From NCBI GenBank assembly GCA_001750925.1, contig MAXH01000042.1, forward strand, positions 1 through 32,000: 32,000 nucleotides of DNA, read 5' to 3'. Source of the DNA: Desulfobulbaceae bacterium S3730MH12. Lineage in GTDB: Bacteria > Desulfobacterota > Desulfobulbia > Desulfobulbales > Desulfocapsaceae. The first letter of the stretch is position 1. Every line of letters starts with the position of its first letter. The position numbers and the translations under genes were made by a program. Shown here piece by piece: positions 1 to 20,294 of this stretch. The notes below the pieces were generated by a model, which did not search any database, was not told the origin of the DNA, and saw only the letters and a list, made by a program, of their open reading frames with translations.

Positions 1-180
1 GGCAAACTGCTTCTCCCCTGTGAAATAATAGCACCCTTCACAGCGAATATTACACCGATTGCTCATATCATAAGTGGATTCACGCAGGAAGAAAAAGCGG
101 CGAACCTTCTCCCAACGCTCTCTGATCAGCGGATCAGCGATAATATCAGAGAATTTATATTCCTGTTGCCCTGCAGACAT
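1..180 (-). CDS. radical SAM enzyme, N-terminal 60 codons only (gene runs off the left edge)
   Basis: Absent from the ORF track because it is truncated. A reverse-strand ATG at 180..178 abuts the stop codon (183..181) of the upstream ACP gene. My translation is MSAGQQEYKFSDIIADPLIRERWEKVRRFFFLRESTYDMSNRCNIRCEGCYYFTGEKQFA. It contains CNIRCEGC, a CX3CX2C radical-SAM cluster motif. Confidence 0.75.
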   Translation of the reverse strand, partial: MSAGQQEYKFSDIIADPLIRERWEKVRRFFFLRESTYDMSNRCNIRCEGCYYFTGEKQFA

Positions 181-447
181 CTATTCGCTGCTGTTGAGTT
201 TATCGTTGATATACCCGGCAATGATGCGCACTGTAGTCAACCTGGGATAATCATCTTCATCAATCCTCACACCGTACTCATCTCGCAACACCAGAACAAC
301 AGTTGCCAGATCCATGGAATCAATGCCCACCTCGTCAACCAGATCAAGGTCGGCATCAAAGGTCTCGGGTGTTATATCTTCGAGCTTGAGCTCGTCGATG
401 ATAATTTCGGCAATTCGGGTAATGGTCTTGCTCATATCGTTAGCCAT
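181..447 (-). CDS. acyl carrier protein (cluster-specific ACP)
   Basis: 88 aa and acidic, with the phosphopantetheine-attachment motif GIDSMD (DSxD/L-type serine). ACP-like length. Sits 4 nt downstream of the dehydratase gene. Confidence 0.9.
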   Translation of the reverse strand: MANDMSKTITRIAEIIIDELKLEDITPETFDADLDLVDEVGIDSMDLATVVLVLRDEYGVRIDEDDYPRLTTVRIIAGYINDKLNSSE

Positions 448-451
448 GAAC

Positions 452-808
452 TCATACTAGTTTTTTTTGAGTGGAAAACATCCTGCCGGAACAAACCTCT
501 TCATCCCCGGAGGTAATTCTAAATATAAACTGATCTTCTCTACCAGTGCATGTAACCTGGATATCGAGCAACTCCCCCGGCCTTACAATTTTCCTGAACT
601 TTACCCGGCTCAAACCGGTCAAATGCGAAACACCTTGCCCGGAGGTGGCGATAAGATCGACAACCATCTTCAATTGGGCAATTCCAGGCAAAATCGGGTC
701 GTCAGGGAAATGGCCGGAAAACCAGGGAGAACTGCCTGTAGTAGTCACTGATGCTGACATCTTGCCTTCTTTATCGTTCAGCAAATGATCATTAAACAAA
801 AAGTCCAT
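452..808 (-). CDS. FabA/FabZ-like hot-dog beta-hydroxyacyl-ACP dehydratase (short form)
   Basis: Contains GHFPDDPILPG, the FabZ histidine motif HFPxxPxxPG. About 118 aa. It lacks the usual N-terminal LLPHRxP segment. An alternative start at 760 (M17) is preceded by AAGAAGG, so the start is uncertain. Confidence 0.8.
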   Translation of the reverse strand: MDFLFNDHLLNDKEGKMSASVTTTGSSPWFSGHFPDDPILPGIAQLKMVVDLIATSGQGVSHLTGLSRVKFRKIVRPGELLDIQVTCTGREDQFIFRITSGDEEVCSGRMFSTQKKLV

Positions 809-937: not shown

Positions 938-1525
938 TCAAAACAGCCGGGGAATAAACATTCCTGTCCGTTGCATATACTCGTCATACACCGAGCCGAA
1001 AAACCGGATATTTTCACGTTCCTCCACCCTGGCACAGGCTGTGAGGAATCCGGAGACAGCAAGAATCAACATACTGGTTAATGGTGTAATGTGTTTTAAA
1101 AAAGCTCCCCAGGCAAGAAAAAGCAGCGAGCTGTACATTGGATGTCGAATATAGCGATAGAGCCCGGTCTCCACAAGATGGGCAGTATTTTCGAAAGAAA
1201 AATTTTCCGGCATATCCTGCCGTTCAGAATAGCCCCCCTCCCTTTTAAACATCAGAAGAGCCTGAATAATAAAGACAATCGAAACAAGGAGAAAAGACCA
1301 GGAGATAAGGTGCTGTGGCGACATCGGCTCAACAAACCAGTAAGGATGATTGAGTAAAACCAGGAGCAGGATCCCTTCAAAAACAAAAAACCGGTAAAAA
1401 CCATGGCTTCCCGGGTTCATCAGAGCCCTCCGGGACAACCAAGTAAAAATCAGGGTACCAAGGCTGAACAGAACAATCCTTATCACGGCAGACTCCTTAA
1501 AATTTGACTCTTTTTTCAAACTCAT
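938..1525 (-). CDS. ICMT/PEMT-family integral-membrane methyltransferase (isoprenylcysteine carboxyl methyltransferase-like)
   Basis: 195 aa and very hydrophobic. Signature LVETGLYRYIRHPMYSS (RHPxY motif). C-terminal EERENIRFFGSVYDEYMQRTGMFIP matches EExxLxxxFGxxYxxY of this family. Overlaps the upstream gene by 29 nt. Confidence 0.85.
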   Translation of the reverse strand: MSLKKESNFKESAVIRIVLFSLGTLIFTWLSRRALMNPGSHGFYRFFVFEGILLLVLLNHPYWFVEPMSPQHLISWSFLLVSIVFIIQALLMFKREGGYSERQDMPENFSFENTAHLVETGLYRYIRHPMYSSLLFLAWGAFLKHITPLTSMLILAVSGFLTACARVEERENIRFFGSVYDEYMQRTGMFIPRLF

Positions 1526-3065
1526 CTGCCCCGAGAATCAATTTTACAGTACTCAAGGATCCCATAATAGTACCGATGATTCCGGGGGCCATTACACTTT
1601 GTCCGGCAAGATATAAGCCTTTCACAGCAGTCCGGTTCAGCAGGGCAGTTGCCAGCATTTGACTGGAGGATCGCAGCACCCCGTAAGCACTTCCTCCCGG
1701 ACTGTTTACCCAGTCCCGTATGGTCAGAGGTGTATAGGTATCAAGAATTTTCAGCCCCTTGAAAGAACCGAACTGTTCCTCCGCCTCCCTGACCAGTTCC
1801 GCAGCATGTTTCTCCTTCCTTTCAAGATAGTCTCCACCTCGATACCCACTTTTTGTCTCCGACCAGGGTGCCCATAACTCATCTTTCCCGGAGGTCAGTA
1901 TCGAAAGGAGAGTAGCATCTTTTTTTTCACTTTTTCGAATTTGATAATATTTTAGATCAACCACATCACCATTATGAGCCACATTGATCTTAAAAACATT
2001 ATAAGGGATTTCCTGATGCATATCAGCATCAAGCCGGACATGGACCGAGAATATACCGTGGGTATCCTGCAGATTGCTAATCCGTTGGCGATACGAAGGT
2101 TTTACATCTCCGCGGGAAAGCATTTTTAAAACAACCTTCGGGTGAACAGCTCCAATAACAGTTCCGGCTGTCAGATCCTCTCCTGATCTTAACTGCAGAC
2201 CGGTTACAACACGGTCCTCAACATTGATCCGGCTCACTTCTTCCCCGACAACTATCCGCCCGCCCAACTCCTTCAATCGCCCGGCAAAAACATCAGCCAT
2301 ATCTGAACCATTTCGTTCCAGACGCCATGAGGATGAAACGTAGGAAGCGAGAGCCATATTGTGATAGTAGGCAGGGCAGTCATTCGGGGGAACACCAATC
2401 CAGCAGGATGGAATGGACAGGACACTTCGCAGCCCCGGCGAACATTGGAGCTCAGTTAAAATTTCACCCAGAGACTGGGATTGATCAAGCAGGGAAAAAT
2501 CGTTATCTGTTGAATAGAGAAAATCCAGCCCATGCAGCTGCCGACCTGCTTGGCGAAGAGGAATGAGCAGCTTTGCTATCTTTTCCTCTTCCCCTGGAAA
2601 AGCCCGGTTAAGGTTCTCTTCATAACCATCCATCCCCTGGGGCAGATCAAAGATCGGCGGACTATTTATAGAGGAGTCAAAGATATACCGGTCGATAACA
2701 CCGTCCTGACCCATTTTTACTACCGGTATGCCCTCACTTACCCCAAGATAATCAAAGAAACTCCTGAGAATTTGCCCCCTGTCAAGCGAACCCAGATAAT
2801 GCACTCCCACACCACACTCAATTCCGTCACGGGTATAACTGCGCAGCAGTCCGCCCGGCCGGAAATTTTTTTCCAGGACGGTAACGTCGATGCCAAGTTT
2901 AGCTAAAATAATTGCAGTGCTGAGGCCACCGACCCCGGAACCTATAATCAGTACCTTGTCAGGCAGGGATGAACAACTTTTCACTATTTGTACCCCGTGA
3001 TTCAAAATAAAACGGAAATTACCGGATGAGATACTCCCACAGCGGTCCGGTATATCCACGATCAT
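1497..3065 (-). CDS. FAD-dependent oxidoreductase of the phytoene desaturase / CrtI / retinol-saturase-like family
   Basis: N-terminal Rossmann dinucleotide motif KVLIIGSGVGGLSTAIILAKLG...LEKN. About 500 aa, typical of COG1233-type amine-oxidase-fold enzymes. C-terminal GLYLAGQSVMAPGIIG. The track ORF extends to 3173 but would overlap the upstream rSAM gene by 155 nt. I chose the ATG at 3065; TTG 3005 and GTG 2984 are also possible. Confidence 0.8.
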   Translation of the reverse strand: MIVDIPDRCGSISSGNFRFILNHGVQIVKSCSSLPDKVLIIGSGVGGLSTAIILAKLGIDVTVLEKNFRPGGLLRSYTRDGIECGVGVHYLGSLDRGQILRSFFDYLGVSEGIPVVKMGQDGVIDRYIFDSSINSPPIFDLPQGMDGYEENLNRAFPGEEEKIAKLLIPLRQAGRQLHGLDFLYSTDNDFSLLDQSQSLGEILTELQCSPGLRSVLSIPSCWIGVPPNDCPAYYHNMALASYVSSSWRLERNGSDMADVFAGRLKELGGRIVVGEEVSRINVEDRVVTGLQLRSGEDLTAGTVIGAVHPKVVLKMLSRGDVKPSYRQRISNLQDTHGIFSVHVRLDADMHQEIPYNVFKINVAHNGDVVDLKYYQIRKSEKKDATLLSILTSGKDELWAPWSETKSGYRGGDYLERKEKHAAELVREAEEQFGSFKGLKILDTYTPLTIRDWVNSPGGSAYGVLRSSSQMLATALLNRTAVKGLYLAGQSVMAPGIIGTIMGSLSTVKLILGADEFEKRVKF

Positions 3066-4362
3066 GCATTCTGCTGACTGTGGCAGCACCCATGGATCCT
3101 CCTGAACCGACAACACAGTTGATTCGATTGCCGACTCTTGTTGAAACAAGATCTTCAATGGCTTCTCGGCCAATATTATCAGCCTGATAAAAAACAGGCT
3201 CCAGCAGATTGGTATCAGTTGTTATCTTTCCCTCGTCAAGTGCGATTGAGTAAAGTGCAGTACGAGGGTAAATCCTGATACCGATGAAAAAAAACAGTAC
3301 TGTCTTCCTGAGATTTTCTATATTATCCAGACTTTCAGTAACCGTAGCAGCTGATTCACCCGGCCCCCCCATAAGAAAATAGTGGGCAGCGTGCAGACCG
3401 GCGTCAATTGCCTGTTGATGAGCGGTAAAAACGTCACCAACTGCAAAGGGTTTATGATACGTTCTCAGCATTGATGCTGACAGAGATTCTGTACCGAATT
3501 CAACATGGGCAAGACCGGAATCCGCCATTTTGGAAAAATAACTGGCTGGATGCCTGACAGGAGCAAAGAACCCTCCCCAGGGGATTGAAACACCGGCAAC
3601 GGTAAAAGCTTTGGCCACCGCAAGGCTGTGATCAATATCTGAATTAAAGGCTGAATCCGTGATAAAAAAATATTTCGCACCGGCACCCTCCAGCTCCAAA
3701 GCCATCTGAGCAACCTTTTCCGGCTCAATCAACCGGTGTTTTCTCCCCTCTATATAAGGATAAGGACAGTATATGCAGTTGAAAGAGCATCCCCTTTTGC
3801 TCTGCAGGTTCAACATCCCCCCTCTATCAAGATAAAAACGGTTATATGACGCATCCTTTTGAAACAGGCGGACACTCTCTCCATACCAGGGCTCCGGTGC
3901 CTGTTTCCCGGTAGGGGAGATCACCCCGGCTATCCTGGCCGGATCAAAACCTTTTTCCACAGCATTAACCAGCAGACTGAACCGTTCCCCCTCACCGACA
4001 ATACCGTAATCGGCCCCAAGAGCGGAGAGAATCTGCTCTGGCATAATAGTGAATCCACTGCCACCGCAGACAATCAGGGCTTTTGAACAAGATCTCAGCC
4101 AGGAGACGAGGGTTTTATACTGATCGATAAAGTGAAGAGAATCTCCTGCTTCAGTATTGTCTATATTACGGCAGGACAACCCGATAATTGCAGGAGAGAA
4201 GTCATGCAGCATCTCTTTAAGGTTTTCAAGCGAGAGTACATTGAGATCAGCAATTCTAACCTCATGCCGGGAAGAAACAGAGCCGGCAACATAATCAAGG
4301 CCTATGGGGTAGACGGGGTAAGGAACAACGAGGGTGTTGGGTGAAATAAGCAGTATGTTCAC
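3019..4362 (-). CDS. B12-binding-domain radical SAM enzyme (class B rSAM), lipid-biosynthesis type
   Basis: The N-terminal region MNILLISPN...IIGLSCR...ALIVCGGSGFT resembles a cobalamin-binding Rossmann-like domain. This is followed by SKRGCSFNCIYCPYP (CX3CX2C). GTG start overlaps the KS-CLF stop (GTGA). Confidence 0.85.
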   Translation of the reverse strand: MNILLISPNTLVVPYPVYPIGLDYVAGSVSSRHEVRIADLNVLSLENLKEMLHDFSPAIIGLSCRNIDNTEAGDSLHFIDQYKTLVSWLRSCSKALIVCGGSGFTIMPEQILSALGADYGIVGEGERFSLLVNAVEKGFDPARIAGVISPTGKQAPEPWYGESVRLFQKDASYNRFYLDRGGMLNLQSKRGCSFNCIYCPYPYIEGRKHRLIEPEKVAQMALELEGAGAKYFFITDSAFNSDIDHSLAVAKAFTVAGVSIPWGGFFAPVRHPASYFSKMADSGLAHVEFGTESLSASMLRTYHKPFAVGDVFTAHQQAIDAGLHAAHYFLMGGPGESAATVTESLDNIENLRKTVLFFFIGIRIYPRTALYSIALDEGKITTDTNLLEPVFYQADNIGREAIEDLVSTRVGNRINCVVGSGGSMGAATVSRMHDRGYTGPLWEYLIR

Positions 4363-6509
4363 AGCCGGGAAAACTCCATTGCTGTAATATACGAACCGAA
4401 CCCGAGCACAAGTATTTTATTCATCCTGCTGTCTATGACAATCTCACTTCGGCCCGTAATACCCCGGGGAACAGCCCCTGTCTCAAAAAAGGAGACGGCA
4501 AGAGCTGCAGCCACAGCAGAAGCGGAGGCAAACTCACCTGTAAGTCTGCGGTAACGGAGAACGGGGGCAGATAATTTTGTTTGCGCCATAAACTGTTCAA
4601 GCTGCAGCTCCCCTTCCCGGCGACTGGCAGCGGGGATACCGGCCAGGATCAGTGCACAGCTGTTCTGTAAAAAGCTAACGCCGCCAAGAGAATCTACCAG
4701 GGCTGCAACTGCTCCGTCGGCCCTGCTGCTTTCGTAGTAGGGAATGGAAATAGAGCAATCGGCTCCCCCGGTTTTTCTGTTTACACAAAAAGCAGCACCA
4801 CCATCGGCAAGGGTTGATCCCTGCTCAATCGAAGGATCAAAAAGTGGCGAGAATATATCATGCCCCTCATCCGCCCCGATAATAACAGCCGGCCCTGCAG
4901 ATTCATCATGCATAAGTTCTGCCGCGAACAGTGCCTGTTCAAAGGAATAGTCTCCACCACTGGTGGTAATATTCGGACCTGTTGCTCCAAACATGATTGC
5001 CACCTGACTGGCAGGCCCGTTATGGACAGAACCGACAAAATCTGTGGGGCTTGGAAACTGCTCTTTGGAGTCCTTAAGGCGAGTCAAAAAGTCGCAGGTT
5101 TCAGAGAGGGCTCCCCAGCCGGTCCCCATAAAGACAGAGTCCGGATTCCCTCTGGCTCCTGCTGCCAGTGACAGCGTTATCCGCGGCAGCCTCTTCAGCC
5201 GGCGTATCAATCGTGGCGGCAGATTCTTTGAAATCATATCCAGTTCAGCTCTCCCGGCAACAGATCCTCCGTCATGCATCCGGGTTATGGAAGCAGCAGT
5301 AGCACCTGCACCGGTCAAACAGGAATATCCATGAATTGCCAGCCCCCGGCGGGATGGCACCTCCACTGGCCCTGAAAATATATCAGCTTTTCCAATGACC
5401 AGGGAACCGTTATTTCCCCCGAAACCAAAAGAGTTGGAAAGAACAGCCCGGACGGGACATTCCAGCGGATCTGACAATGGTGTCAAACCAAGCTCGGGAT
5501 CAACTTCCTGCAGACCTGTATTAGCCGGCAGCAGTCCCCGGGAAAGAATAATGGTGGAGACCACTGCCTCGATGCCTCCGGCAGCTGCCAGGCTGTGACC
5601 GGATGCGCCTTTAATGGAAGAGAGCGGCGGGAGGCTGATAAAAAGTTTGTGCAAAGCCTTGGATTCAGCCAGATCATTATCCGGAGTTCCGGTGCCATGC
5701 AGATTTATATAACTGATATCATCAGGAGAAAGCCCGCCATCAGCGAGAGCATTCTGCATGGCACTGAAGGCCCCCGTACCTTCCGGATGGGGGGCGGCCG
5801 GATGGTAGGCGTCACAGGAAAGCCCGGCCCCAAGGAGTACACCATAAGGGTTTTGCGGTTTCACTGTGGTGAGGAGAAGCAGACCTGCACCCTCAGCCAC
5901 AACCATCCCCTGGCGGTTCCGGTCGAGAGGTTTACAGCCGGAATTATCTACAAGCTGCAGGGAATGAAAACCAAAATAGGTAAGACGGCAGAGAGAATCC
6001 ACTCCACCGGCAAGAACTGCCTCCACCTGCCCCCTGCGCAGCATTTTCAACGCCATACTGATGGCCACAGTACCGGAGGAACATGCAGTGGAAACAGTAA
6101 GAGCGGGACCTGTACAGTTAAGTTCCCGGGCCAGAAAGCTGACAACAGTATTTAACCCATGGTTTCGATACAAATCCTTTTTCTGTTCATTGCTGCGAAG
6201 CAACTCTTCAGTAGTCAGGATACCGCCGGTGGTAGTTCCAATAACAATTGCATCCGGGGAGTGGTTATACCCCTCCATGGCCTGCTGCGCCGCAGTAAGA
6301 GCCAACATGTGAGTCCGCGGCAGCACTGACACCCTCGTCATGCCACCTGCTTCACCAACCGGCAGAGGAGATCCCTGCATCAGGGGAAACAGTTCCAGAG
6401 GTTTAATTGCCGAACGGTTTTCAAGCAGTGTTCTTTCGGTGGCACCAAGCCCCACACCCAGGGGGCTGACTATGCCTGCGCCGCCAATATAAACCTGCCT
6501 CTCTGTCAA
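4359..6509 (-). CDS. fused beta-ketoacyl synthase / chain-length-factor-like protein (KS-CLF in one polypeptide)
   Basis: N-terminal ~395 aa carry KS catalytic motifs: TACSSG (Cys), HGTGT, GHSLAAAG and FGFGGNNGSLVI. The C-terminal ~320 aa are thiolase-like but have no active-site Cys. They carry SPTDFVGSVHNGPASQVAIMFGATGPN, which I associate with APE-type CLF partners. TTG start overlaps the ACP stop (TTGA). Confidence 0.85.
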   Translation of the reverse strand: MTERQVYIGGAGIVSPLGVGLGATERTLLENRSAIKPLELFPLMQGSPLPVGEAGGMTRVSVLPRTHMLALTAAQQAMEGYNHSPDAIVIGTTTGGILTTEELLRSNEQKKDLYRNHGLNTVVSFLARELNCTGPALTVSTACSSGTVAISMALKMLRRGQVEAVLAGGVDSLCRLTYFGFHSLQLVDNSGCKPLDRNRQGMVVAEGAGLLLLTTVKPQNPYGVLLGAGLSCDAYHPAAPHPEGTGAFSAMQNALADGGLSPDDISYINLHGTGTPDNDLAESKALHKLFISLPPLSSIKGASGHSLAAAGGIEAVVSTIILSRGLLPANTGLQEVDPELGLTPLSDPLECPVRAVLSNSFGFGGNNGSLVIGKADIFSGPVEVPSRRGLAIHGYSCLTGAGATAASITRMHDGGSVAGRAELDMISKNLPPRLIRRLKRLPRITLSLAAGARGNPDSVFMGTGWGALSETCDFLTRLKDSKEQFPSPTDFVGSVHNGPASQVAIMFGATGPNITTSGGDYSFEQALFAAELMHDESAGPAVIIGADEGHDIFSPLFDPSIEQGSTLADGGAAFCVNRKTGGADCSISIPYYESSRADGAVAALVDSLGGVSFLQNSCALILAGIPAASRREGELQLEQFMAQTKLSAPVLRYRRLTGEFASASAVAAALAVSFFETGAVPRGITGRSEIVIDSRMNKILVLGFGSYITAMEFSRL

Positions 6510-6772: not shown

Positions 6773-6787
6773 ATTTTTTACAGTTTG

Positions 6788-6805: not shown

Positions 6806-6808
6806 CAC

Positions 6809-14525: not shown

Positions 14526-15391
14526 ATAATTTCTGGTATAAACTGCTTACCCGGACTGCCAACTTGTGTGGATCGTGGTTATTTATCATCGTATCCCGGA
14601 CTGTTGCCGCCGGCTACTTTCTACTTTCCAGGCGGGTGAGAGAAAGCAGCCGCTTCTATGCCGCCCTCTATCCCGGCAGAGGAAAACTCTACCATCTATG
14701 GTGCAGCTTTTACCAGTATCAGAATTTCACAACCATTCACCTTGACAGATTTTTGGCGAATCAAGCTAAATCAGTAACCTTTACATCCCAGGGTTGGGAA
14801 AAACTGGAATCGGTCATTGGATCCCGGGGTGGTATTCTTCTTATGTCACATCTTGGCAACTGGGAAATTGCCGCAACACTGCTCAAGCGGCAGAAAAACA
14901 ACCTGCGTCTGCTCCTCTATATGGGTATAAAGGAAAAAGAAGGGATAGAAAAGGCCCAAAAAGATACCCTCCGCAGATCCGGAGTAACCATCATTGGAGT
15001 AGAAAAAGAAGACAGTTCACCATTTTCCGCGTTGGAAGGTATTCGCTTTCTGCAGTCGGGAGGTCTGGTATCCATGGCAGGCGATATCGTCTGGCGCAAA
15101 GATCAACGAAAGGTATGTGTTTCTTTTCTGGGCCATGATGCCTTCCTGCCGGAAGCACCTTTTGTTTTTGCTCTGGTATCAGGTGCCCCGCTTTTTGTCT
15201 TCTTTGCATTCCGCACCGGCAAAAACTGCTACCACTTCACCCTGTCAGATCCAATCCCGGTTCGAACCGTATCCCGTCAGGATAGAGCCGAAGCCATCTC
15301 ACAGGCTGCTCAGCAGTACGCTGATCTGCTGGAAGAATCACTCCGGAAACATCCATTTGAATGGTATCATTTTGATCGATTTATTCATTGA
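14522..15391 (+). CDS. LpxL/HtrB-family lysophospholipid (lipid A-type) acyltransferase
   Basis: 289 aa with an N-terminal membrane anchor. The LLMSHLGNWE motif is the HxxxxD/E acyltransferase box as found in the lauroyl/myristoyl acyltransferase family. ATGA overlap with the GT2 gene. Confidence 0.75.
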   Translation: MNNFWYKLLTRTANLCGSWLFIIVSRTVAAGYFLLSRRVRESSRFYAALYPGRGKLYHLWCSFYQYQNFTTIHLDRFLANQAKSVTFTSQGWEKLESVIGSRGGILLMSHLGNWEIAATLLKRQKNNLRLLLYMGIKEKEGIEKAQKDTLRRSGVTIIGVEKEDSSPFSALEGIRFLQSGGLVSMAGDIVWRKDQRKVCVSFLGHDAFLPEAPFVFALVSGAPLFVFFAFRTGKNCYHFTLSDPIPVRTVSRQDRAEAISQAAQQYADLLEESLRKHPFEWYHFDRFIH

Positions 15392-15435: not shown

Positions 15436-15472
15436 TTTTTTCCCAGAAAGTTCTCGCTTGATAAGTCCTATT

Positions 15473-15745
15473 ATGACCAGAGATGAATTAAAAGATAAAA
15501 TCTTAACAATCCTGACTGAAGATTTTGAATTTGAAAAACCCGGCCTGAACGACAATCTCCGAAACGACCATGGTTTTGACAGTATTGATGCCATTGAACT
15601 GCTGGGGAAAATTGAGATCATCCTTGACTTTTCCCTTACCCGGGATGAAAAAGAAAAGGCCATGGAAATCAGAACAATCAACGATATCCTTGATTATATT
15701 GAAGGAATCGTACAGTCTCGAAACAAACAACCAACTTCAGTCTGA
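15473..15745 (+). CDS. acyl carrier protein (third ACP of the cluster)
   Basis: HGFDSIDAIELLGKIE contains the phosphopantetheine serine. About 90 aa from the ATG at 15473; the track start at 15458 is a TTG. Confidence 0.85.
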   Translation: MTRDELKDKILTILTEDFEFEKPGLNDNLRNDHGFDSIDAIELLGKIEIILDFSLTRDEKEKAMEIRTINDILDYIEGIVQSRNKQPTSV

Positions 15746-15750
15746 TATCC

Positions 15751-16998
15751 ATGAAACGACGCGTTGTTATCACCGCCTGCTCTGCCATTACTCCTATCGG
15801 GTATGACAAAAGGGATATAATAGAAAGCCTCAGGCAGGGCAAATCCGGGGTAAAACCACTACGGGATGACGGATTGCTGACAAAACATATCCACTCCCGT
15901 GTATTCGGCACTGTCGACTACCCCATCGAGTACGGCTTCAAACGGCAGTACCGAAAGACCATGGGGCCCGTTGCCTTTTACGCCTGTCAGGTTGCAAAAG
16001 ATGTTTTGCAAAGCTCTGGCCTGAGTCGGGACTATATCACCTCCGGCCGTCTTGGTGTTGCCTTTGGCTCAACCCACGGCAGCCCTACCGTCCAGCGCGA
16101 TATCTACAAAACATTTTTCAACGATCTTGATTCAAAATTTTCCTCTATCGGAGCAGTTGATTATCTCCGCTCCATGGTTCATACGACAGCGGTAAACATC
16201 ACCCGAATGTTCGGCATCACCGGGCGGGTCATCGCTTCATCCACCGCCTGTACAACCAGCAGCCAGTCCATCGGGTTTGGTTATGAAACGATCAAGTATG
16301 GCATGCAGGATGCTATGATCTGTGGTGGGGCGGATGAGTATGATACTACCACTGTTGCAGTTTTTGATAACCTGCTTGCCTGTTCTGTAGATTATAATCA
16401 TAAACCGCACTGTACTCCCCGTCCATTTGATGCCGGACGAGACGGGTTGGTTGTAGGAGAGGGAGGCGGCGCTGTACTTCTCGAAGAGTATGAGTCCGCC
16501 AAAAGACGTGGCGCCAACATCCTTGGAGAAATCATTGGTTTTGGTTGCAATAACAACGGCGGCGACATGATCCTGCCGAATCTTGATGGAATTACCGCAA
16601 CCTTGCGTCTGGCACTCGAATCTGCCGAGATATCTCCCGACGACGTCGATTTTATCAGCGCCCATGCCACTGCGACAAAGATGGGTGATGTCATTGAATC
16701 TCAGGCCATAGCAGCGGTATATGGAAACGGACCACTGGTTACCGGCCTGAAAAGTTATATGGGCCATACCATGGGGACCTGTGGCGTCATTGAGTTAATT
16801 TTAACGTTGTATATGATGGAGCAGGGATTTATTGCCCCAACCCTCAATCTTGACAATGTTGATGAACGGTGCAGCATGCTGCGTCATACCCGTCAACTGA
16901 CTGATACCGCCATCAGGATAGCAGCCATTCAAAACTTTGCTTTTGGCGGAGTAAATACCTGCCTGCTTATTAAAAATGGTAGTGAAGCAGATTCGTAA
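15751..16998 (+). CDS. beta-ketoacyl-ACP synthase (FabB/FabF-like KS)
   Basis: Catalytic triad motifs STACTTSS (Cys), SAHATATKMGD (His) and GHTMGTCG (His), plus FAFGGVNTCLLI at the C-terminus. 415 aa. Confidence 0.9.
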   Translation: MKRRVVITACSAITPIGYDKRDIIESLRQGKSGVKPLRDDGLLTKHIHSRVFGTVDYPIEYGFKRQYRKTMGPVAFYACQVAKDVLQSSGLSRDYITSGRLGVAFGSTHGSPTVQRDIYKTFFNDLDSKFSSIGAVDYLRSMVHTTAVNITRMFGITGRVIASSTACTTSSQSIGFGYETIKYGMQDAMICGGADEYDTTTVAVFDNLLACSVDYNHKPHCTPRPFDAGRDGLVVGEGGGAVLLEEYESAKRRGANILGEIIGFGCNNNGGDMILPNLDGITATLRLALESAEISPDDVDFISAHATATKMGDVIESQAIAAVYGNGPLVTGLKSYMGHTMGTCGVIELILTLYMMEQGFIAPTLNLDNVDERCSMLRHTRQLTDTAIRIAAIQNFAFGGVNTCLLIKNGSEADS

Positions 16999-17764
16999 CG
17001 GTTCTTTTGGTCATCTGATTGATCGACTTATTGATTGCACTGTAACCATTGCATGCTGGAGCTGGTTTATATTTGGATTTCTGCTGTTTTTTTCCTGGCC
17101 CTATATTGCATTTTCGCTGTTTTCAAAAAATCCTGAAATTCATTTCCAGAAATTGAACAGCCTCTTTTACCGATTCTTTTTCCGTATCCTTAAGATAACA
17201 GCCCCCCGTCAAAAAATTGAAGTAGACAAACGGGTAGCAGCAATCAAATCTTCAGTTATTGTCTGTAACCACCTCTCCTATCTTGACCCGCTGCTATTGA
17301 TTGCTCTCTTCCCAAAACAAAAAACAATCGTCAAAACACGTTTTTTCGGGGCACCTGTTTTCGGCTGGATTATCACAAAATCCGGTTATCTCCCTGCGAC
17401 CTGCGAAGGACGGTTTTCCAGGATGATGATTGAGCAGATGGAAACGATGGCTACCTATTTGAAGGCAGGCGGTAATCTCTTTGTCTTCCCTGAAGGAACT
17501 CGGGTTCGGAATGGAAAAATAGGCGAACTTCATATGGGCGCCTTGAAAATTGCACGAATGCATCAAGCCCCTGTCCATGTTCTGCAGATTCGTAATAGCG
17601 ACAAACTCTTCACTCCCGGCAGGTTTCTTTTTAATACCAGGATAAGAAATACAATCAGCGTTAAAAGTATTGATTGCATCGAACCGGACTATGAGAATGA
17701 ACCACCATCTACTGCTCAACTTGCCCGGCGGGTTCGTCAATCATTTTACGAGAAGCAGATATGA
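16976..17764 (+). CDS. 1-acyl-sn-glycerol-3-phosphate acyltransferase family protein (PlsC-like)
   Basis: N-terminal TM segment. VCNHLSYLDP is the HX4D box and VFPEGTR is the second acyltransferase box. Overlaps the KS gene by 23 nt. Confidence 0.85.
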   Translation: MVVKQIRNGSFGHLIDRLIDCTVTIACWSWFIFGFLLFFSWPYIAFSLFSKNPEIHFQKLNSLFYRFFFRILKITAPRQKIEVDKRVAAIKSSVIVCNHLSYLDPLLLIALFPKQKTIVKTRFFGAPVFGWIITKSGYLPATCEGRFSRMMIEQMETMATYLKAGGNLFVFPEGTRVRNGKIGELHMGALKIARMHQAPVHVLQIRNSDKLFTPGRFLFNTRIRNTISVKSIDCIEPDYENEPPSTAQLARRVRQSFYEKQI

Positions 17765-19251
17765 AAGTAATTCTAATATCTATGCCTGATGTGGTACCTG
17801 TCATCATTCACGAAGCGGCATTCCACCTGTCAAACCATGGAATAGCCAGTGTTGGAGCAAATATCGACATTGAACATGATGTTTTTCTGATTGATCTGAT
17901 TCGAAAGCGTCGGTCAATTAGAAAATATATTGCCAGAGCAGTGAGGAAGATCAAACCTGATCTTATTGGTCTTTCCGCCATGACCTGGCAGTATAACACC
18001 TGTATTAAGATAACCCGCCTCATCAGGGAACTCCTTCCCGAAGTAAAAATAGTTATCGGGGGATACCACACCACCCTGATGTTTGAGGAGATAGCGACAT
18101 CCCATGAGGCAAAATTCATCGACTTTATGATCAGGGGCGAAGGTGAAGAGCCATGCCGCCTGCTGGTTAATGCACTTGCCGGCCAGGGAAACCCGGCTGC
18201 AATCCCCTCGCTGTCGTATAAAAAAAATGGCGTTTTTATACACAATCCCCGGAGTGAAAACCTCGATCTCAGCGAATTGAAACTGCCAATCCGGGATAAG
18301 CGAAGATTGACCTGGGGATACCATATGCTTCACTCCAAAATCGAACTGATAGAAACATCCCGCGGCTGCACGCGATCCTGCAACTTCTGTTCGATGAAAC
18401 ACATGTATGGCCGTACCTTCAGGACGTTTCCTCTCATCCGGGTGCTAACAGATATTGACGATATTTATTTTAAGCGAAAGACACGGTATATTTTTATCAC
18501 AGATGATAATATGGTGCTTAACCCAGCCAGGGTCATAGAACTGTGTGATGCCATAATTGCCAGGAATTATAAAGATCTTCATCTTTTTGTCCAGGCTGAC
18601 TGCGTATCGATGGCAAAAAACGAGGCGATGGTCGCAAAAATGGCAGAAGCCGGTTTTCGTTCCGTTTTCCTCGGTATTGAAAACGTATCAAAAAAGAACC
18701 TGGCCGCTGCAGGTAAAGGCGATATTATTGCATCTTCCAAACAAGCTGTTCAAAACTGTCATAAGTACGGAATGATGGTCATCGGTGGCCTTATATTCGG
18801 CTTCCCCGAGGATGACGAAGAATCGATCAGAGATAATTATGAATTCTTCAAATCTATTAAAGCCGACGCAGCGTACTGCCAGGTGTTGACCCCCTATCCC
18901 AAAACCGGGATACGAGAACATCTTCTACAGCAGGAATTAATTACCAACCGGACTGATTTTACAAAATACAACGGTCTGTGGGCCAATGTACGAACAAATT
19001 ATTTAGCTACAGAACAGCTGCAATTCCAATTCTGGTACCAGCGTCAAGTTGTGCTGGGCTGGTGGAATCCACCCGCCGAGGTCAGAAGTCAAGGATGGGC
19101 ATGGATATTCGTCTGGCGGTTTATGTTCAAACCTTTTTTGACACTCTACTATAGAAGGGTTATGAAGAAGTACGGCTGGGAAGGACGCTACAGGAAAGAA
19201 GTAACACGGTGGGAAAACATGAACAGGTTTCAGGATCTTGAGGATTACTAA
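17761..19251 (+). CDS. B12-binding-domain radical SAM enzyme (class B rSAM)
   Basis: N-terminal MKVILISMP...LIGLSAMTWQ...VKIVIGGYHTT resembles a cobalamin-binding domain. Followed by TSRGCTRSCNFCSM (CX3CX2C). 496 aa. ATGA overlap with the upstream gene. Confidence 0.85.
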   Translation: MKVILISMPDVVPVIIHEAAFHLSNHGIASVGANIDIEHDVFLIDLIRKRRSIRKYIARAVRKIKPDLIGLSAMTWQYNTCIKITRLIRELLPEVKIVIGGYHTTLMFEEIATSHEAKFIDFMIRGEGEEPCRLLVNALAGQGNPAAIPSLSYKKNGVFIHNPRSENLDLSELKLPIRDKRRLTWGYHMLHSKIELIETSRGCTRSCNFCSMKHMYGRTFRTFPLIRVLTDIDDIYFKRKTRYIFITDDNMVLNPARVIELCDAIIARNYKDLHLFVQADCVSMAKNEAMVAKMAEAGFRSVFLGIENVSKKNLAAAGKGDIIASSKQAVQNCHKYGMMVIGGLIFGFPEDDEESIRDNYEFFKSIKADAAYCQVLTPYPKTGIREHLLQQELITNRTDFTKYNGLWANVRTNYLATEQLQFQFWYQRQVVLGWWNPPAEVRSQGWAWIFVWRFMFKPFLTLYYRRVMKKYGWEGRYRKEVTRWENMNRFQDLEDY

Positions 19252-19256
19252 TTTCA

Positions 19257-20294
19257 ATGCAGATATATAATTTTGAATTTACCGAACAAGAGATCCGTGA
19301 GGCAGTGGCTACCGACAGACTTCTATCCATGGAGATTGAGTTCAGCCGGGTTTGCAACTTCCGCTGCTCTTACTGCTATGTTGACGAGAAGGTTGAATGC
19401 AATAATGAGCTTTCCAGAGAAGAGATCAGGAATGTCATCCGGCAGGCAAAAGAGCTGGGAGCACGAAAAATAATCATTCTTGGGGGAGAACCATCTATTT
19501 ATCCGCATCTCGTTGAGATGCTGCGCTTTCTTGGTAAAGAGAACCTTCAGATCGAAATGTTTACCAATGGTTCCGGCATTGACAAAGAGTTGGCTGGAGT
19601 GCTGGCCGAAGAAAAGGTCCGGATTGCCTTGAAACAAAATTCCCGGGATGAGAAAATCCAGGATCATCTGGCCGGGAAAAAAGGAGCATTTCGGATGATC
19701 AACAGGGCGCTGGCTGCATTAAAAGAGGCAGGATACCCCTCTAAAGAGCTGTTTCTGGCAATCAGCACTGTCATCTGCCGACAAAACATTAAAGAATTAC
19801 CGTCAATGTGGCAGTGGTTGCGAGCTGAAAATATTGAACCTTATTTTGAAGTCATTACTCCCCAGGCTAATGGTCGTGAAAATAGTTGGCTTGGCGTCGA
19901 CCCGGAAGAATTGAAGGAGTTATTTACCGAGCTTTCGGCCATTGACAAAAAAATGTTTGGTCGGAAATGGGAACCACAGCCACCACTGGTAGGCAACAAA
20001 TGCATGCGGCACCAGGTCTCCTGTGTGGTTACAGCAACCGGTGATGTCATGCCCTGTGTAGGAGTTACCATTGCTCTGGATAATATTCGCCACAACAAAC
20101 TCGCCTCTATCCTGAAAAACAGTGAGGTGATCAGCAATCTGAAGAATTACCGGCAGATGATCAAGGGAGAGTGCCGCAGTTGCGAAAAAGCATCCGAATG
20201 TTATGGCTGTCGGGGAGCAGCATATCAACTCACCGGTGATTATCTCGCCTCAGATCCCACCTGCTGGCGCAATTCTGCCTGTAAAAATCTATGA
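19257..20294 (+). CDS. radical SAM enzyme with C-terminal SPASM/twitch-like Cys-rich domain
   Basis: EFSRVCNFRCSYCYV (CX3CX2C). C-terminal auxiliary-cluster pattern NKCMRHQVSCVVTATGDVMPC ... CRSCEKASECYGCRGAAY ... DPTCW. Last gene of the cluster. Confidence 0.85.
   Translation: MQIYNFEFTEQEIREAVATDRLLSMEIEFSRVCNFRCSYCYVDEKVECNNELSREEIRNVIRQAKELGARKIIILGGEPSIYPHLVEMLRFLGKENLQIEMFTNGSGIDKELAGVLAEEKVRIALKQNSRDEKIQDHLAGKKGAFRMINRALAALKEAGYPSKELFLAISTVICRQNIKELPSMWQWLRAENIEPYFEVITPQANGRENSWLGVDPEELKELFTELSAIDKKMFGRKWEPQPPLVGNKCMRHQVSCVVTATGDVMPCVGVTIALDNIRHNKLASILKNSEVISNLKNYRQMIKGECRSCEKASECYGCRGAAYQLTGDYLASDPTCWRNSACKNL

What the first reader, a model, noticed from the sequence alone, without database searches (positions are those of the whole stretch)
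1..20294. ~20-kb orphan lipid/polyketide cluster: APE-like type II PKS core plus five radical-SAM enzymes; product unknown
Every gene from the left edge to 20294 shares one theme, and the genes are packed with 1-29 nt overlaps in two divergent operons.

Minus operon: ACP, fused KS-CLF, B12-rSAM, CrtI-like flavoenzyme, ICMT-type methyltransferase, hot-dog dehydratase, ACP, then an rSAM that continues off-window. Plus operon: hot-dog dehydratase, ketoreductase, LolA-like protein, lipoprotein, B12-rSAM, AMP-ligase, Dak2-DegV, GT2, LpxL-like acyltransferase, ACP, KS, PlsC-like acyltransferase, B12-rSAM, SPASM-rSAM.

The set KS/CLF + KS + 2 DH + KR + ACPs + AMP-ligase + GT2 + two acyltransferases + LolA-like is the architecture of aryl-polyene (APE) type II PKS clusters. 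APE clusters as I know them carry no radical-SAM enzymes, CrtI homologue or Dak2-DegV.

The only comparable mixture I recall is KS/ACP/FabZ genes with several rSAM enzymes and a phytoene-desaturase homologue. That occurs in the bioinformatically proposed 'ladderane' lipid clusters of anammox bacteria, with a look-alike noted in Desulfotalea. This is a recollection of comparative-genomics work by Rattray and colleagues, and as far as I know the chemistry was never demonstrated.

The cluster therefore plausibly makes a heavily tailored acyl chain (methylated, cyclised, cross-linked and/or polyunsaturated). That chain would be esterified to a glycero- or glycolipid anchor and sent to the outer membrane. 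The structure cannot be inferred from sequence.
Basis: partly seen in the sequence, partly recalled or inferred. Interest (0 to 1): 0.88.

Follow-up and report, generated by a model that had tools for sequence, protein, structure and literature searches.

The report
Orphan polyketide-lipid cluster with radical-SAM enzymes
This is a real, tightly packed gene cluster in a sulfate-reducer relative that pairs an aryl-polyene-like fatty-acid/polyketide machine with many radical-SAM enzymes; the cluster family is widespread and was described in 2009, but its product is still unknown.

Summary
Profile searches confirm all 22 ORFs from position 1 to 20294 as called, and all five radical-SAM (rSAM) proteins carry CX3CX2C.

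The cluster is not rare. The hallmark B12-rSAM (3019-4362) passes the NCBIfam equivalog TIGR04072 ("lipid biosynthesis B12-binding/radical SAM protein"). Relatives occur in at least 525 species genomes.

In Desulfobulbia loci the KS-CLF, ACPs, dehydratases, KR, LolA-like protein, lipoprotein, three B12-rSAMs and the Dak2-DegV fusion are co-conserved. The CrtI-like/ICMT pair, the SPASM rSAM and the AMP-ligase are variable accessories.

The cluster runs off the window. In relatives it continues about 6 kb with a second small rSAM, two FabF-like KS, a thioesterase and a double hot-dog dehydratase.

The resemblance to the anammox "Cluster I" ladderane genes is remote (22-38% identity). The anammox B12-rSAM fails TIGR04072 and is closest to the window's second B12-rSAM.

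Best reading: an aryl-polyene-like type II PKS/FAS builds an unsaturated ACP-bound chain. Radical enzymes then tailor it, and it is attached to an envelope lipid.

This is a new member of a bioinformatically known, chemically orphan class (Rattray 2009; antiSMASH "ladderane" hits in non-anammox phyla).

The parts
1..180 (-). N-terminal 60 aa of a small radical-SAM protein that continues off the window. Full-length homologues are about 353 aa and carry a C-terminal CC-x6-C-x2-C auxiliary-cluster motif.
   Evidence: CNIRCEGC at aa 43-50. 68-91% identical to the start of the 353-aa rSAM in relatives. Present in 45/59 loci.
181..447 (-). Acyl carrier protein ACP1
   Evidence: PF00550 38 bits. GIDSM serine motif. 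Present in 48/59 loci.
452..808 (-). Hot-dog 3-hydroxyacyl-ACP dehydratase, FabZ/ApeI-like
   Evidence: PF07977 33.6 bits and ApeI-like 24.6 bits, the latter below its cutoff. Best PDB hits 3esi and 6qsr. HFPxxPxxPG motif. Present in 47/60 loci.
938..1525 (-). Membrane ICMT/PEMT-family methyltransferase (variable accessory)
   Evidence: PF04191, PF06966 and PF04140. Present in only 9/65 loci. A nonsense variant occurs in another assembly of the same population.
1497..2984 (-). CrtI/phytoene-desaturase-family flavoenzyme (variable accessory). The longest ORF reaches 3173; the real GTG start is at 2984.
   Evidence: PF01593 77 bits. CrtD 94 bits and crtI_fam 76 bits, both far below cutoffs. Start codon with a GGGG ribosome-binding site. 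Homologues are about 495 aa. Adjacent to the T4072 rSAM in 13/70 loci.
3019..4362 (-). B12-binding radical-SAM protein, member of TIGR04072 (the hallmark gene of the cluster)
   Evidence: TIGR04072 391 bits against a cutoff of 360. CSFNCIYC motif. Best solved relative is TsrM 6wte, 102 bits. 592 clusters at 50% identity reach E<=1e-30. At least 525 species genomes carry a relative.
4359..6509 (-). Fused ketosynthase / chain-length-factor (KS-CLF)
   Evidence: PF00109, PF02801 and PF13723. The KS half keeps Cys-His-His; the CLF half has lost all three. Best PDB hits are ApeO 6qsp (204 bits) and amxFabF2 9s5h_B (200 bits). Present in 63/64 loci.
6506..6808 (-). Acyl carrier protein ACP2 (probable start at 6772)
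   Evidence: PF00550. PRK09184 65 bits. GIDSI motif. Present in 61/62 loci.
6809..7047 (.). Divergent intergenic region between the two operons
   Evidence: Gene coordinates. Promoter-like matches are not above chance. No Rfam family.
7048..7482 (+). Hot-dog dehydratase, ApeP-like (longest ORF starts at 6988)
   Evidence: ApeP-like 18 bits, below its cutoff of 27, is the only Pfam hit. Weak fabZ hit. Present in 55/61 loci.
7489..8226 (+). 3-oxoacyl-ACP reductase (FabG/FlxB-like KR)
   Evidence: NF004200 302 bits, above its cutoff of 273. FlxB_rubin_SDR 297 bits against 340. Present in 55/60 loci.
8226..8819 (+). LolA-like periplasmic lipid/lipoprotein carrier
   Evidence: PF03548 48 bits. LolA2_flexi 87 bits against 125. 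Present in 54/60 loci.
8816..9481 (+). Conserved lipoprotein of unknown family (signal peptide plus LTSC lipobox)
   Evidence: No Pfam or NCBIfam hit. Lipobox visible in the sequence. Present in 49/58 loci. The AlphaFold2 model was unusable.
9478..10758 (+). Second B12-binding radical-SAM protein. It is the most conserved gene of the cluster and the closest in-window relative of the anammox Cluster I rSAM.
   Evidence: PF02310 34 bits and PF04055 24.7 bits, the latter below its cutoff. CRFNCYPC motif. 73-89% identity across relatives. 27-28% identity and 149-156 bits to the Kuenenia and Brocadia rSAMs. Present in 47/52 loci.
10748..12109 (+). AMP-dependent ligase (ApeH-like role; variable)
   Evidence: PF00501. 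Best NCBIfam hit is 4-coumarate-CoA ligase, 95 bits against 335. Present in 37/52 loci. Absent from the more distant metagenome relatives.
12106..13824 (+). Dak2-FakA_M-DegV fusion (single-chain FakA/FakB-like fatty-acid kinase)
   Evidence: PF02734, PF21645 and PF02645. TIGR00762 DegV 144 bits, above its cutoff of 99.7. FakA 105 bits against 975. Present in 32/46 loci and in the metagenome relatives.
13788..14525 (+). Family-2 glycosyltransferase
   Evidence: PF00535 82 bits. Co-occurs with B12rSAM_3 in relatives.
14522..15391 (+). LpxL/PIM-type lipid acyltransferase
   Evidence: PF03279 47 bits. Co-conserved.
15458..15745 (+). Acyl carrier protein ACP3
   Evidence: PF00550. GFDSI motif. Co-conserved.
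15751..16998 (+). Stand-alone ketosynthase KS2 (PRK09116 type, ApeR-like role)
   Evidence: NF006587 399 bits against 470. Cys-His-His intact. 69-97% identity in relatives.
16976..17764 (+). PlsC-type acyltransferase
   Evidence: PF01553 71 bits. Co-conserved.
17761..19251 (+). Third B12-binding radical-SAM protein (BchE/HpnR-like)
   Evidence: PF02310 and PF04055. BchE 160 bits and HpnR 111 bits, both below cutoffs. Best PDB hits are 9ccb and TokK. 247 metagenome relatives, linked to KS2, PlsC and ACP3.
19257..20294 (+). SPASM-domain radical-SAM protein (peripheral; found only in close relatives)
   Evidence: PF04055 92 bits and PF13186 28 bits. Present only where B12rSAM_3 identity is 71% or higher.

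Best explanation
The locus encodes a dedicated, ACP-dependent type II PKS/FAS pathway of the aryl-polyene (APE) kind, extended by radical-SAM tailoring enzymes. Its product is a modified acyl chain displayed on an envelope lipid.

Proposed sequence of events (all steps are inferred; none has been shown biochemically):
1. Priming. A starter is loaded on a cluster ACP, either by the AMP-ligase or by decarboxylative priming by the KS-CLF or KS2.
2. Elongation. The fused KS-CLF, the FabG-like KR and the ApeI/ApeP-like dehydratase pair run iterative cycles. The cluster has no enoyl reductase, so the ACP-bound chain is expected to stay unsaturated, possibly as a polyene.
3. Tailoring. Three cobalamin-dependent rSAMs and the small SPASM/twitch-type rSAMs modify unactivated carbons. 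C-methylation is the most likely reaction for the B12 class, with C-C bond formation or cyclisation as the alternative. Where present, the CrtI-like flavoenzyme changes the double-bond pattern and the ICMT-like enzyme O-methylates.
4. A second module lies mostly off-window: two small rSAMs, two active FabF-like KS, a YbgC-type thioesterase and a double hot-dog dehydratase. It builds or releases a second chain.
5. Re-activation and attachment. The FakA/FakB-like fusion re-activates free acid as acyl-phosphate. The PlsC-like and LpxL-like acyltransferases and the GT2 then attach the chain(s) to a glycero- or glycolipid.
6. Export. The LolA-like protein and the lipoprotein carry the product toward the outer membrane.
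For: Domain content and intact catalytic residues support functional enzymes.

APE affinity:
- KS half versus ApeO 6qsp, 204 bits.
- Hot-dog proteins versus 3esi, 6qsr and the ApeI/ApeP-like models.
- FlxB-like KR and LolA2_flexi-like carrier.

No ER domain appears anywhere in 1-20294 or in the extension seen in L017.

rSAM assignments:
- The T4072 rSAM is above the equivalog cutoff of a family that NCBI names 'lipid biosynthesis'. Its nearest solved relative is the methyltransferase TsrM.
- B12rSAM_3 is nearest to BchE, HpnR and TokK.

Co-conservation of rSAMs with the KS/ACP core in 80 genome loci and 80 metagenome loci:
- KS-CLF 63/64
- ACP2 61/62
- B12rSAM_2 47/52
- rSAM_L 45/59
- B12rSAM_3 is linked to KS2, PlsC, ACP3, LpxL, GT2 and Dak2-DegV.

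Gene junctions overlap, implying co-translation within operons. The left-hand module is present in 27-29 of the 29 full-length loci that hit it. The DegV and Dak2 domains are above Pfam cutoffs.
Against: - No product is known for any member, so every chemical step is inference.
- ApeI-like and ApeP-like Pfam scores are below gathering thresholds.
- No MMPL/RND exporter and no aryl-starter gene (TAL/UbiC type) lies in the window, so an aryl head group is unsupported.
- The AMP-ligase is missing from many relatives.
- Not all B12-rSAMs are methyltransferases (BchE, OxsB and AprD4 are not), so methylation is only the prior expectation.
- B12rSAM_2 scores below the Pfam Radical_SAM cutoff (24.7 against 29.5), although it has the CX3CX2C motif.
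- Housekeeping FabI could still reduce the chain.
Confidence: 0.55

Rival explanations
1. The cluster remodels ordinary membrane phospholipid acyl chains rather than making a polyketide-like pigment lipid. Candidate reactions are mid-chain C-methylation, tail-to-tail coupling or ether-lipid-related chemistry. The rSAMs would act on fatty acyl chains, and the FakA/B fusion plus PlsC would feed them back into phospholipid synthesis.
For: - The FakA/FakB-like fusion and the PlsC-type acyltransferase are phospholipid-pathway parts.
- rSAM enzymes are known to couple or modify lipid tails (Mss/Tes).
- Two FabF-like, fully active KS sit in the left module.
- NCBI names the hallmark family 'lipid biosynthesis'.
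Against: - The KS-CLF, ApeI/ApeP-like dehydratases, LolA-like carrier, GT2 and LpxL-like genes are the APE/flexirubin toolkit, not the phospholipid toolkit.
- None of the five searched rSAM proteins returned any solved tetraether synthase; their hit lists name only TsrM, AprD4, TokK, OxsB, CysS, PqqE, SkfB, viperin-type and unnamed rSAM chains.
- Homology to Mss could not be tested.
Confidence: 0.2
2. It is an ordinary aryl-polyene/flexirubin-type pigment cluster. The rSAM genes are minor decorators or passengers, and the product is a standard APE lipid.
For: - Nearly the full APE gene set is present by function: KS/CLF, KS, two dehydratases, KR, ACPs, AMP-ligase, GT2, two acyltransferases and a LolA-like protein.
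- TIGR04072 members also occur in Bacteroidota such as Flammeovirga.
Against: - B12rSAM_2 is the most conserved protein of the locus (73-89% identity). The rSAMs are retained in 45-47 of 52-59 loci, which does not fit passengers.
- No aryl-starter gene is present.
- The AMP-ligase that would load an aryl acid is dispensable in many relatives.
- The ApeI/ApeP models are not met at threshold.
Confidence: 0.12
3. It encodes an anaerobic route to polyunsaturated fatty acids or hydrocarbons, as Rattray et al. proposed for Desulfotalea. In that scheme the CrtI-like enzyme and the rSAMs introduce double bonds.
For: Rattray et al. found C31:8 and C31:9 hydrocarbons in D. psychrophila, which carries a similar cluster, and proposed this link.
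Against: - The C31:9 hydrocarbon is explained elsewhere by the Pfa synthase plus OleABCD (PMC6463001).
- The CrtI-like gene lies next to the hallmark rSAM in only 13/70 loci.
- A KS/KR/DH system without ER already yields unsaturation without desaturases.
- The paper's own reviewers judged the inference weak.
Confidence: 0.05
4. It makes ladderane (concatenated cyclobutane) lipids, as the anammox cluster is proposed to do.
For: - It has the same six component types as anammox Cluster I: ACP, hot-dog dehydratase, KS, CLF-like protein, CrtI-like protein and B12-rSAM.
- The hallmark family's short name is rSAM_ladder_B12.
- Such clusters are typed 'ladderane' by antiSMASH in Desulfobacterota.
Against: - Identities to the Brocadia and Kuenenia proteins are only 22-38%.
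- The anammox Cluster I rSAM scores 88 bits against the TIGR04072 cutoff of 360. It matches the window's T4072 rSAM at only 22-24%.
- No ladderanes were found in D. psychrophila.
- The family occurs in hundreds of non-anammox species.
- Ladderanes are reported only from anammox bacteria.
Confidence: 0.03

Closest known systems
Aryl-polyene (APE) type II PKS clusters (ApeA-R of E. coli / Xenorhabdus; structures 6QSP, 6QSR) and the related flexirubin clusters
   Same: - KS plus an inactive CLF partner.
- A second stand-alone KS.
- Two small hot-dog dehydratases.
- A FabG-like KR and several ACPs.
- An AMP-ligase, GT2, LpxL-like and PlsC-like acyltransferases.
- A LolA-like carrier plus a lipoprotein, and no ER.
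- The best solved relatives of the KS and of one dehydratase are APE proteins. The best or second-best NCBIfam hits of the LolA-like protein and the KR are flexirubin families.
   Different: - KS and CLF are fused into one 716-aa protein.
- Five or more rSAM enzymes, a FakA/B-like fusion and (here) a CrtI-like/ICMT pair are embedded in the operons.
- No MMPL exporter, thioesterase or ring methyltransferase lies in the window, and there is no aryl-starter gene.
- ApeI/ApeP Pfam thresholds are not reached.
Extended FASII / radical-SAM / phytoene-dehydrogenase clusters of Kuenenia stuttgartiensis and Desulfotalea psychrophila (Rattray et al. 2009), which is the class antiSMASH labels 'ladderane' in non-anammox phyla
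   Same: - Same taxonomic neighbourhood (Desulfobulbia).
- Same unusual mix of FabF paralogues, ACPs, rSAM enzymes, a phytoene-dehydrogenase homologue, a CoA-ligase-like gene and a glycosyltransferase.
- Product unknown.
   Different: Direct sequence comparison with the D. psychrophila loci (DP1853, DP1855, DP1860) could not be made here. The window's version combines the CrtI/ICMT pair with the DH-ACP-rSAM module, an arrangement seen in only 2 of 59 related loci.
Anammox 'Cluster I' (kuste3603-3608: amxACP, amxFabZ, amxFabF2, amxFabFmut, PDH, B12-rSAM)
   Same: - Same six component types and roughly the same order: ACP, KS, CLF-like, then flavoenzyme and B12-rSAM.
- The CLF-like partners in both have lost Cys/His/His and share a Gly-Glu at the second His position.
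- amxFabF2 scores almost as well as ApeO against the KS half (200 against 204 bits).
   Different: - Identities are low: KS 38%, FabZ versus dehydratase 28-33%, PDH 22%, amx rSAM versus T4072 rSAM 22-24%.
- The amx rSAM is not a TIGR04072 member (88 bits against 360). It aligns best, end to end, with the window's other B12-rSAM at 9478-10758 (27-28%, 149-156 bits).
- In anammox the KS and CLF are separate proteins.
Jawsamycin-type pathway (iterative PKS plus rSAM cyclopropanase Jaw5)
   Same: It is the only characterised precedent cited for an rSAM enzyme modifying a growing ketoacyl chain (review PMC13459092). It works like the tailoring step proposed here.
   Different: Jaw5 is a HemN-like rSAM working with a type I PKS. 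No window rSAM gave a HemN-type hit, and the window enzymes are B12-dependent or SPASM/twitch types.
FakA/FakB fatty-acid kinase of Firmicutes
   Same: A Dak2 kinase domain, the FakA middle domain and a DegV fatty-acid-binding domain are all present.
   Different: They are fused in one 572-aa chain. The protein scores far below the FakA (105 against 975) and FakB1 (42 against 350) equivalog cutoffs, and it sits inside a PKS-like operon.

Membership tests
TIGR04072 (lipid biosynthesis B12-binding/radical SAM protein) | Whole-protein score above the curated equivalog cutoff (360 bits), covering the model end to end | tested here: met
   Window 3019-4362: 391 bits, model positions 1-443 of 443.
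Radical SAM superfamily (all five in-window proteins) | CX3CX2C cluster-binding motif plus a Radical_SAM profile match | tested here: met
   The motif is present in all five. PF04055 is above its cutoff for 3019-4362, 17761-19251 and 19257-20294. It is below the cutoff for 9478-10758 (24.7 against 29.5), and the 60-aa fragment gives no Pfam hit.
Aryl-polyene (APE) BGC | ApeO/ApeC-type KS/CLF pair | tested here: met
   The KS half's best PDB hit is 6qsp (204 bits). The C-terminal half matches PF13723 and lacks Cys/His/His. Here the two are fused.
Aryl-polyene (APE) BGC | ApeI/ApeP dehydratase pair recognised by the Pfam families PF22818 and PF22817 | tested here: inconclusive
   ApeI-like 24.6 bits against a cutoff of 28.5. 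ApeP-like 18.2 bits against 27. These are the best or only specific hits but fall below threshold.
Aryl-polyene (APE) BGC | MMPL/RND exporter (ApeM) and thioesterase (ApeK) within the cluster | tested here: not met
   Neither is present in 1-20294. A YbgC-type thioesterase appears in the off-window extension of relatives. No MMPL protein was seen.
Aryl-polyene (APE) BGC | Aryl (4-hydroxybenzoate-type) starter and a pigmented polyene product | not testable with these tools
   This needs chemistry. No starter-supply gene is present in the window.
Anammox Cluster I (putative ladderane cluster) | Co-located amxACP, amxFabZ, FabF2, FabFmut, PDH and B12-rSAM component types | tested here: met
   All six domain types lie in the minus operon and in L086 and L087.
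Anammox Cluster I (putative ladderane cluster) | Orthology of the components, especially the B12-rSAM and the PDH | tested here: not met
   PDH 22% identity. amx rSAM versus T4072 rSAM 22-24% (43-46 bits). The amx rSAM scores 88 bits on TIGR04072 against a cutoff of 360.
Anammox Cluster I (putative ladderane cluster) | The host makes ladderane lipids | not testable with these tools
   Literature only: no ladderanes in D. psychrophila, and ladderanes are restricted to anammox bacteria.
Desulfotalea/Kuenenia extended FASII-rSAM clusters (Rattray 2009) | Sequence-level synteny with D. psychrophila DP1853, DP1855 and DP1860 | not tested
   The D. psychrophila sequence could not be retrieved. It was not among the best 80 loci or the best 120 hits. 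Gene content matches the paper's description.
antiSMASH 'ladderane' BGC type | Passes the antiSMASH rule | not testable with these tools
   antiSMASH is not available here. The literature reports such calls in Desulfobacterota and other non-anammox phyla.
FakA/FakB fatty-acid kinase | Equivalog-level match to FakA and FakB | tested here: not met
   FakA_VfrB 105 bits against 975. FakB1 42 bits against 350. Only the DegV domain model passes (144 against 99.7).

The most novel reading that the evidence does not exclude
Desulfobulbia, including cable-bacteria relatives and several culturable sulfate reducers, may use this cluster to make an undescribed class of envelope lipid. Its polyketide-type chain would be multiply C-methylated or radical-cyclised/cross-linked by six or more rSAM enzymes.

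The highly conserved B12-rSAM at 9478-10758 is the closest in-window relative found here of the anammox Cluster I rSAM. These culturable carriers could therefore serve as a surrogate system for working out ladderane-type radical chemistry.
Probability: 0.2. Interest if true: 0.85.

Novelty: new member of a known kind. Interest (0 to 1): 0.5.

Why it matters
According to a 2026 review, rSAM chemistry on fatty-acyl or polyketide chains is almost undocumented; only jawsamycin and the unproven ladderane route are cited. Yet this cluster family places six or more rSAM enzymes inside a conserved ACP-dependent pathway found in hundreds of anaerobe genomes.

Solving one member would do three things:
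- assign function to a large named-but-uncharacterised rSAM family (TIGR04072);
- explain the 'ladderane' BGC calls that genome-mining studies keep reporting outside anammox bacteria;
- possibly give a culturable model for the anammox enzymes, which have so far resisted heterologous expression.

The window itself adds one more member and a rarer combined architecture. It does not add a new principle.

Tried and rejected
- **Lipoprotein structure.** A single-sequence AlphaFold2 model of the lipoprotein at 8816-9481 gave a mean pLDDT of 33 and was unusable, so no fold search was run.
- **RNA elements.** An Rfam scan of the whole window found no family, including no B12 or SAM riboswitch in the divergent region.
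- **Promoters and terminators.** The promoter/terminator scan of the divergent region and of the right boundary gave nothing above shuffled expectation.
- **D. psychrophila locus.** I tried to retrieve it through the rSAM and CrtI-like searches. It was not in the listed hits, and the single genome scan kept only the best 80 loci of at least 525.
- **Literature.** Searches for TIGR04072 or 'lipid biosynthesis B12-binding' returned 0 papers. 'Aryl polyene + radical SAM + cobalamin + gene cluster' also returned 0. None of the 12 papers listed for 'ladderane' combined with cable-bacteria/Desulfobulbaceae terms contained the word 'ladderane'.
- **T4072 rSAM as the anammox orthologue.** I considered and rejected this.
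- **Tetraether-synthase-like rSAMs.** The PDB sequence searches returned no solved tetraether synthase; the named hits were TsrM, AprD4, TokK, OxsB, CysS, PqqE, SkfB and viperin-type chains.
- **Chance adjacency.** I rejected this on the synteny counts.

Full report
**Source and layout**

The window matches a metagenome-assembled contig held as NCBI GCA_001750995.1 (MAXK01000359.1) and as ENA scaffolds. The nearest relatives of its proteins are all Desulfobulbia: Desulforhopalus, Desulfopila, Desulfocapsaceae, Desulfobulbus and Electrothrix. GC content is even across the window at 0.44-0.53, so nothing marks the cluster as recently acquired.

Genes to the right of 20294 are unrelated housekeeping genes:
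- glycogen phosphorylase on the opposite strand
- a TPR protein
- metY-metX-metW
- cysE and cysK
- a GspE/PilB-type ATPase

The ORF at 30745-31926 (possibly a secretin) was not searched.

ORF listing and translation reproduce the 22 ORFs. Pfam and NCBIfam confirm each call.

Minus strand:
- ACP
- FabZ/ApeI-like hot-dog dehydratase
- ICMT/PEMT-type methyltransferase
- CrtI-family flavoenzyme
- B12-binding rSAM
- a 716-aa protein with a complete KS followed by a Ketoacyl-synt_2 (CLF-type) half
- ACP

Plus strand:
- ApeP-like hot-dog dehydratase
- FabG-type reductase
- LolA-like protein
- a lipobox protein with no family
- B12-rSAM
- AMP-ligase
- Dak2-FakA_M-DegV fusion
- GT2
- LpxL-like acyltransferase
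- ACP
- KS
- PlsC-like acyltransferase
- B12-rSAM
- SPASM-rSAM

Catalytic features are intact:
- CX3CX2C is present in all five rSAMs and the phosphopantetheine serine in all three ACPs.
- Cys-His-His is present in the KS half and in KS2.
- The CLF half has Asp, a deletion and Glu at those three positions.

Junctions overlap by 1-37 nt apart from three short gaps. One correction: the CrtI-like gene starts at GTG 2984 behind a GGGG ribosome-binding site, giving the 495 aa typical of its homologues. It therefore does not overlap the rSAM gene.

**The cluster is conserved, modular and larger than the window**

I scanned one genome per species with an alignment of the 3019-4362 rSAM. At least 525 genomes encode a relative, and the best 80 loci (55-74% identity) were kept. 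I then scored each window protein against those loci with tblastn, requiring at least 35% identity and at least 50% coverage. Only loci with enough flank to contain the gene were counted.

| Gene | Loci with the gene / loci with enough flank |
|---|---|
| KS-CLF | 63/64 |
| ACP2 | 61/62 |
| ApeP-like dehydratase | 55/61 |
| KR | 55/60 |
| LolA-like | 54/60 |
| lipoprotein | 49/58 |
| second B12-rSAM | 47/52 |
| AMP-ligase | 37/52 |
| Dak2-DegV | 32/46 |
| ApeI-like dehydratase | 47/60 |
| ACP1 | 48/59 |
| small rSAM (rSAM_L) | 45/59 |
| CrtI-like | 13/70 |
| ICMT | 9/65 |

Of 59 loci with enough downstream sequence:
- 42 have the DH-ACP-rSAM module only.
- 11 have CrtI (with or without ICMT) only.
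- 2 have CrtI together with the DH-ACP-rSAM module but no ICMT hit (the window carries CrtI, ICMT and the module).
- 1 has ICMT with the module.
- 3 have none of these genes.

A second scan was anchored on the third B12-rSAM and run over metagenome contigs, giving 247 relatives. That gene travels with KS2, PlsC, ACP3, LpxL, GT2, Dak2-DegV, the second B12-rSAM and the KS-CLF core. The SPASM rSAM appears only in the closest relatives, where anchor identity is 71% or higher.

To the left of the window, relatives continue with the following genes:
- the rest of the small rSAM (353 aa)
- a paralogous rSAM (332 aa)
- two FabF-like KS, both with intact active sites
- a YbgC-type thioesterase
- a double hot-dog PKS-type dehydratase

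These were found in 27-29 of the 29 full-length loci that hit the extension queries. The CrtI-like and ICMT genes behave as accessories.

**How it relates to known systems**

*Aryl-polyene machinery.* This is the closest characterised relative.
- The KS half's best solved relative is the ApeO ketosynthase 6qsp.
- The small dehydratase is nearest to 3esi and 6qsr.
- The specific Pfam hits are ApeI-like and ApeP-like, both below threshold.
- The LolA-like protein's best NCBIfam hit, and the reductase's second-best, are flexirubin-cluster families.

*The hallmark rSAM.* It passes the NCBIfam equivalog TIGR04072, 'lipid biosynthesis B12-binding/radical SAM protein', short name rSAM_ladder_B12 (391 against 360 bits). 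The family is large, with 592 clusters at 50% identity reaching E<=1e-30. It reaches Bacteroidota (Flammeovirga) and Elusimicrobiota.

*Literature.*
- Rattray et al. (2009) described such FASII/rSAM/phytoene-dehydrogenase clusters in Kuenenia, Desulfotalea psychrophila, Geobacter and Pelobacter. They found no ladderanes in Desulfotalea.
- Heterologous expression of the Kuenenia candidate genes gave no product.
- A 2023 survey reports antiSMASH 'ladderane' clusters expressed in Desulfobacterota and seven other non-anammox lineages, with unknown function.
- A 2026 review still lists ladderane biosynthesis as unsolved.

I found no paper that assigns a product to this cluster type.

**Direct test against the anammox cluster**

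I recovered the anammox Cluster I from a Brocadia-type (Planctomycetia) contig and a Kuenenia contig, using the crystallised amxFabF2 sequence as the entry point. The cluster has the same six component types as the window's minus operon, but the similarity is remote:

| Comparison | Identity |
|---|---|
| amxFabF2 vs KS half | 38% |
| amxFabZ vs small dehydratase | 28-33% |
| amx PDH vs window CrtI-like | 22% |
| Cluster I B12-rSAM vs TIGR04072 rSAM | 22-24% (43-46 bits) |
| Cluster I B12-rSAM vs second B12-rSAM (9478-10758), end to end | 27-28% (149-156 bits) |

The anammox rSAM itself scores only 88 bits on TIGR04072. So the family's name should not be read as a link to the currently favoured ladderane genes.

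The one notable connection is the second B12-rSAM. It is the most conserved protein of the Desulfobulbia clusters, at 73-89% identity.

**Most likely mechanism (inferred, not shown)**

1. An APE-like iterative KS-CLF/KR/DH system has no enoyl reductase in the cluster, so it should give an unsaturated ACP-bound chain.
2. The B12-rSAMs would then tailor that chain. Their nearest solved or curated relatives are TsrM, TokK, HpnR and BchE, which makes C-methylation the default expectation and C-C bond formation the alternative.
3. The small rSAMs carry a C-terminal Cys-rich motif and have no informative relatives. Their chemistry is open.
4. The thioesterase, the FakA/B-like fusion, two acyltransferases, the GT2, the LolA-like protein and the lipoprotein suggest release, re-activation, attachment to a glyco- or glycerolipid, and transfer toward the outer membrane.

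I put this general model at about 0.55. The rivals are:
- phospholipid acyl-chain remodelling, 0.2
- an ordinary APE pigment, 0.12
- Rattray's PUFA/hydrocarbon route, 0.05; it is weakened because the C31:9 hydrocarbon is explained elsewhere by Pfa plus Ole enzymes
- true ladderane synthesis, 0.03

**Verdict**

The cluster is, however, one more member of a widespread class that was described bioinformatically long ago and remains chemically orphan.

The work here adds four things:
- module boundaries and core-versus-accessory assignments;
- the off-window extension;
- the result that the TIGR04072 rSAM is not the anammox Cluster I orthologue, while the second B12-rSAM is that enzyme's nearest in-window relative;
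- a list of culturable carriers (Desulfopila sp. IMCC35006, Desulforhopalus sp. IMCC35007, Desulfogranum mediterraneum DSM 13871, Desulfobulbus rhabdoformis DSM 8777) in which the product could be sought.

Interest is moderate at 0.5. The enzymology would be new, but this window does not open a question that was not already open.

Noticed in passing
L001:13100-13160 (equivalent to window ~1170-1180, ICMT gene): In another assembly of the same population (ENA ERZ9811289, coverage about 2.6x), a G-to-T change turns a GAA codon of the ICMT-like gene into TAA. The gene is therefore called as two fragments of 93 and 78 aa. This could be a real nonsense variant of an accessory gene or a low-coverage error.
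   Followed up: partly
L086:13989-15449 and L087:14037-15494: The B12-rSAM of the anammox Cluster I scores only 88 bits on TIGR04072, whose short name is rSAM_ladder_B12 and whose cutoff is 360. The family name therefore does not cover the rSAM now favoured for ladderane synthesis.
   Followed up: yes
L081:8550-17000 (MAG labelled Spirochaetota): A module of CrtI-like gene, TIGR04072 rSAM, dehydratase, ACP, two small rSAMs and FabF-like KS occurs without any of the APE-like genes within 10 kb. This suggests that the left module can exist on its own.
   Followed up: partly
L147:11416-15718 and L095:12872-15389: More distant relatives carry further parts downstream of the third B12-rSAM: an extra KS, a DUF1638 protein, another B12-binding protein, or a FabH-like KS III plus a fourth B12-rSAM. 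The cluster family is highly modular.
   Followed up: partly
proteins P0367 (754 aa) and P0388 (807 aa): Some TIGR04072-like domains are fused to an N-terminal extension of about 300-360 aa and unknown identity.
   Followed up: no
proteins P0365/P0524: TIGR04072 members occur in Flammeovirga (Bacteroidota) and in an Elusimicrobiota MAG. The family is therefore not confined to Desulfobacterota.
   Followed up: partly
window 23626-25149: The longest ORF for the O-acetylhomoserine sulfhydrylase-type gene has an 82-codon N-terminal extension that overlaps the preceding TPR gene. Gene calls in sister contigs start at about 23872 (425 aa).
   Followed up: partly
window 20353-31926: The right flank is housekeeping: glgP, a CcmH-like TPR protein, metY-metX-metW, cysE, cysK and a GspE/PilB-type ATPase with an MshEN domain. 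A 393-aa ORF that might be a secretin follows but was not searched against any family library. Only the closest relative (L089) shares the tested flank genes (GlgP, TPR, MetY), which supports 20294 as the right boundary.
   Followed up: partly
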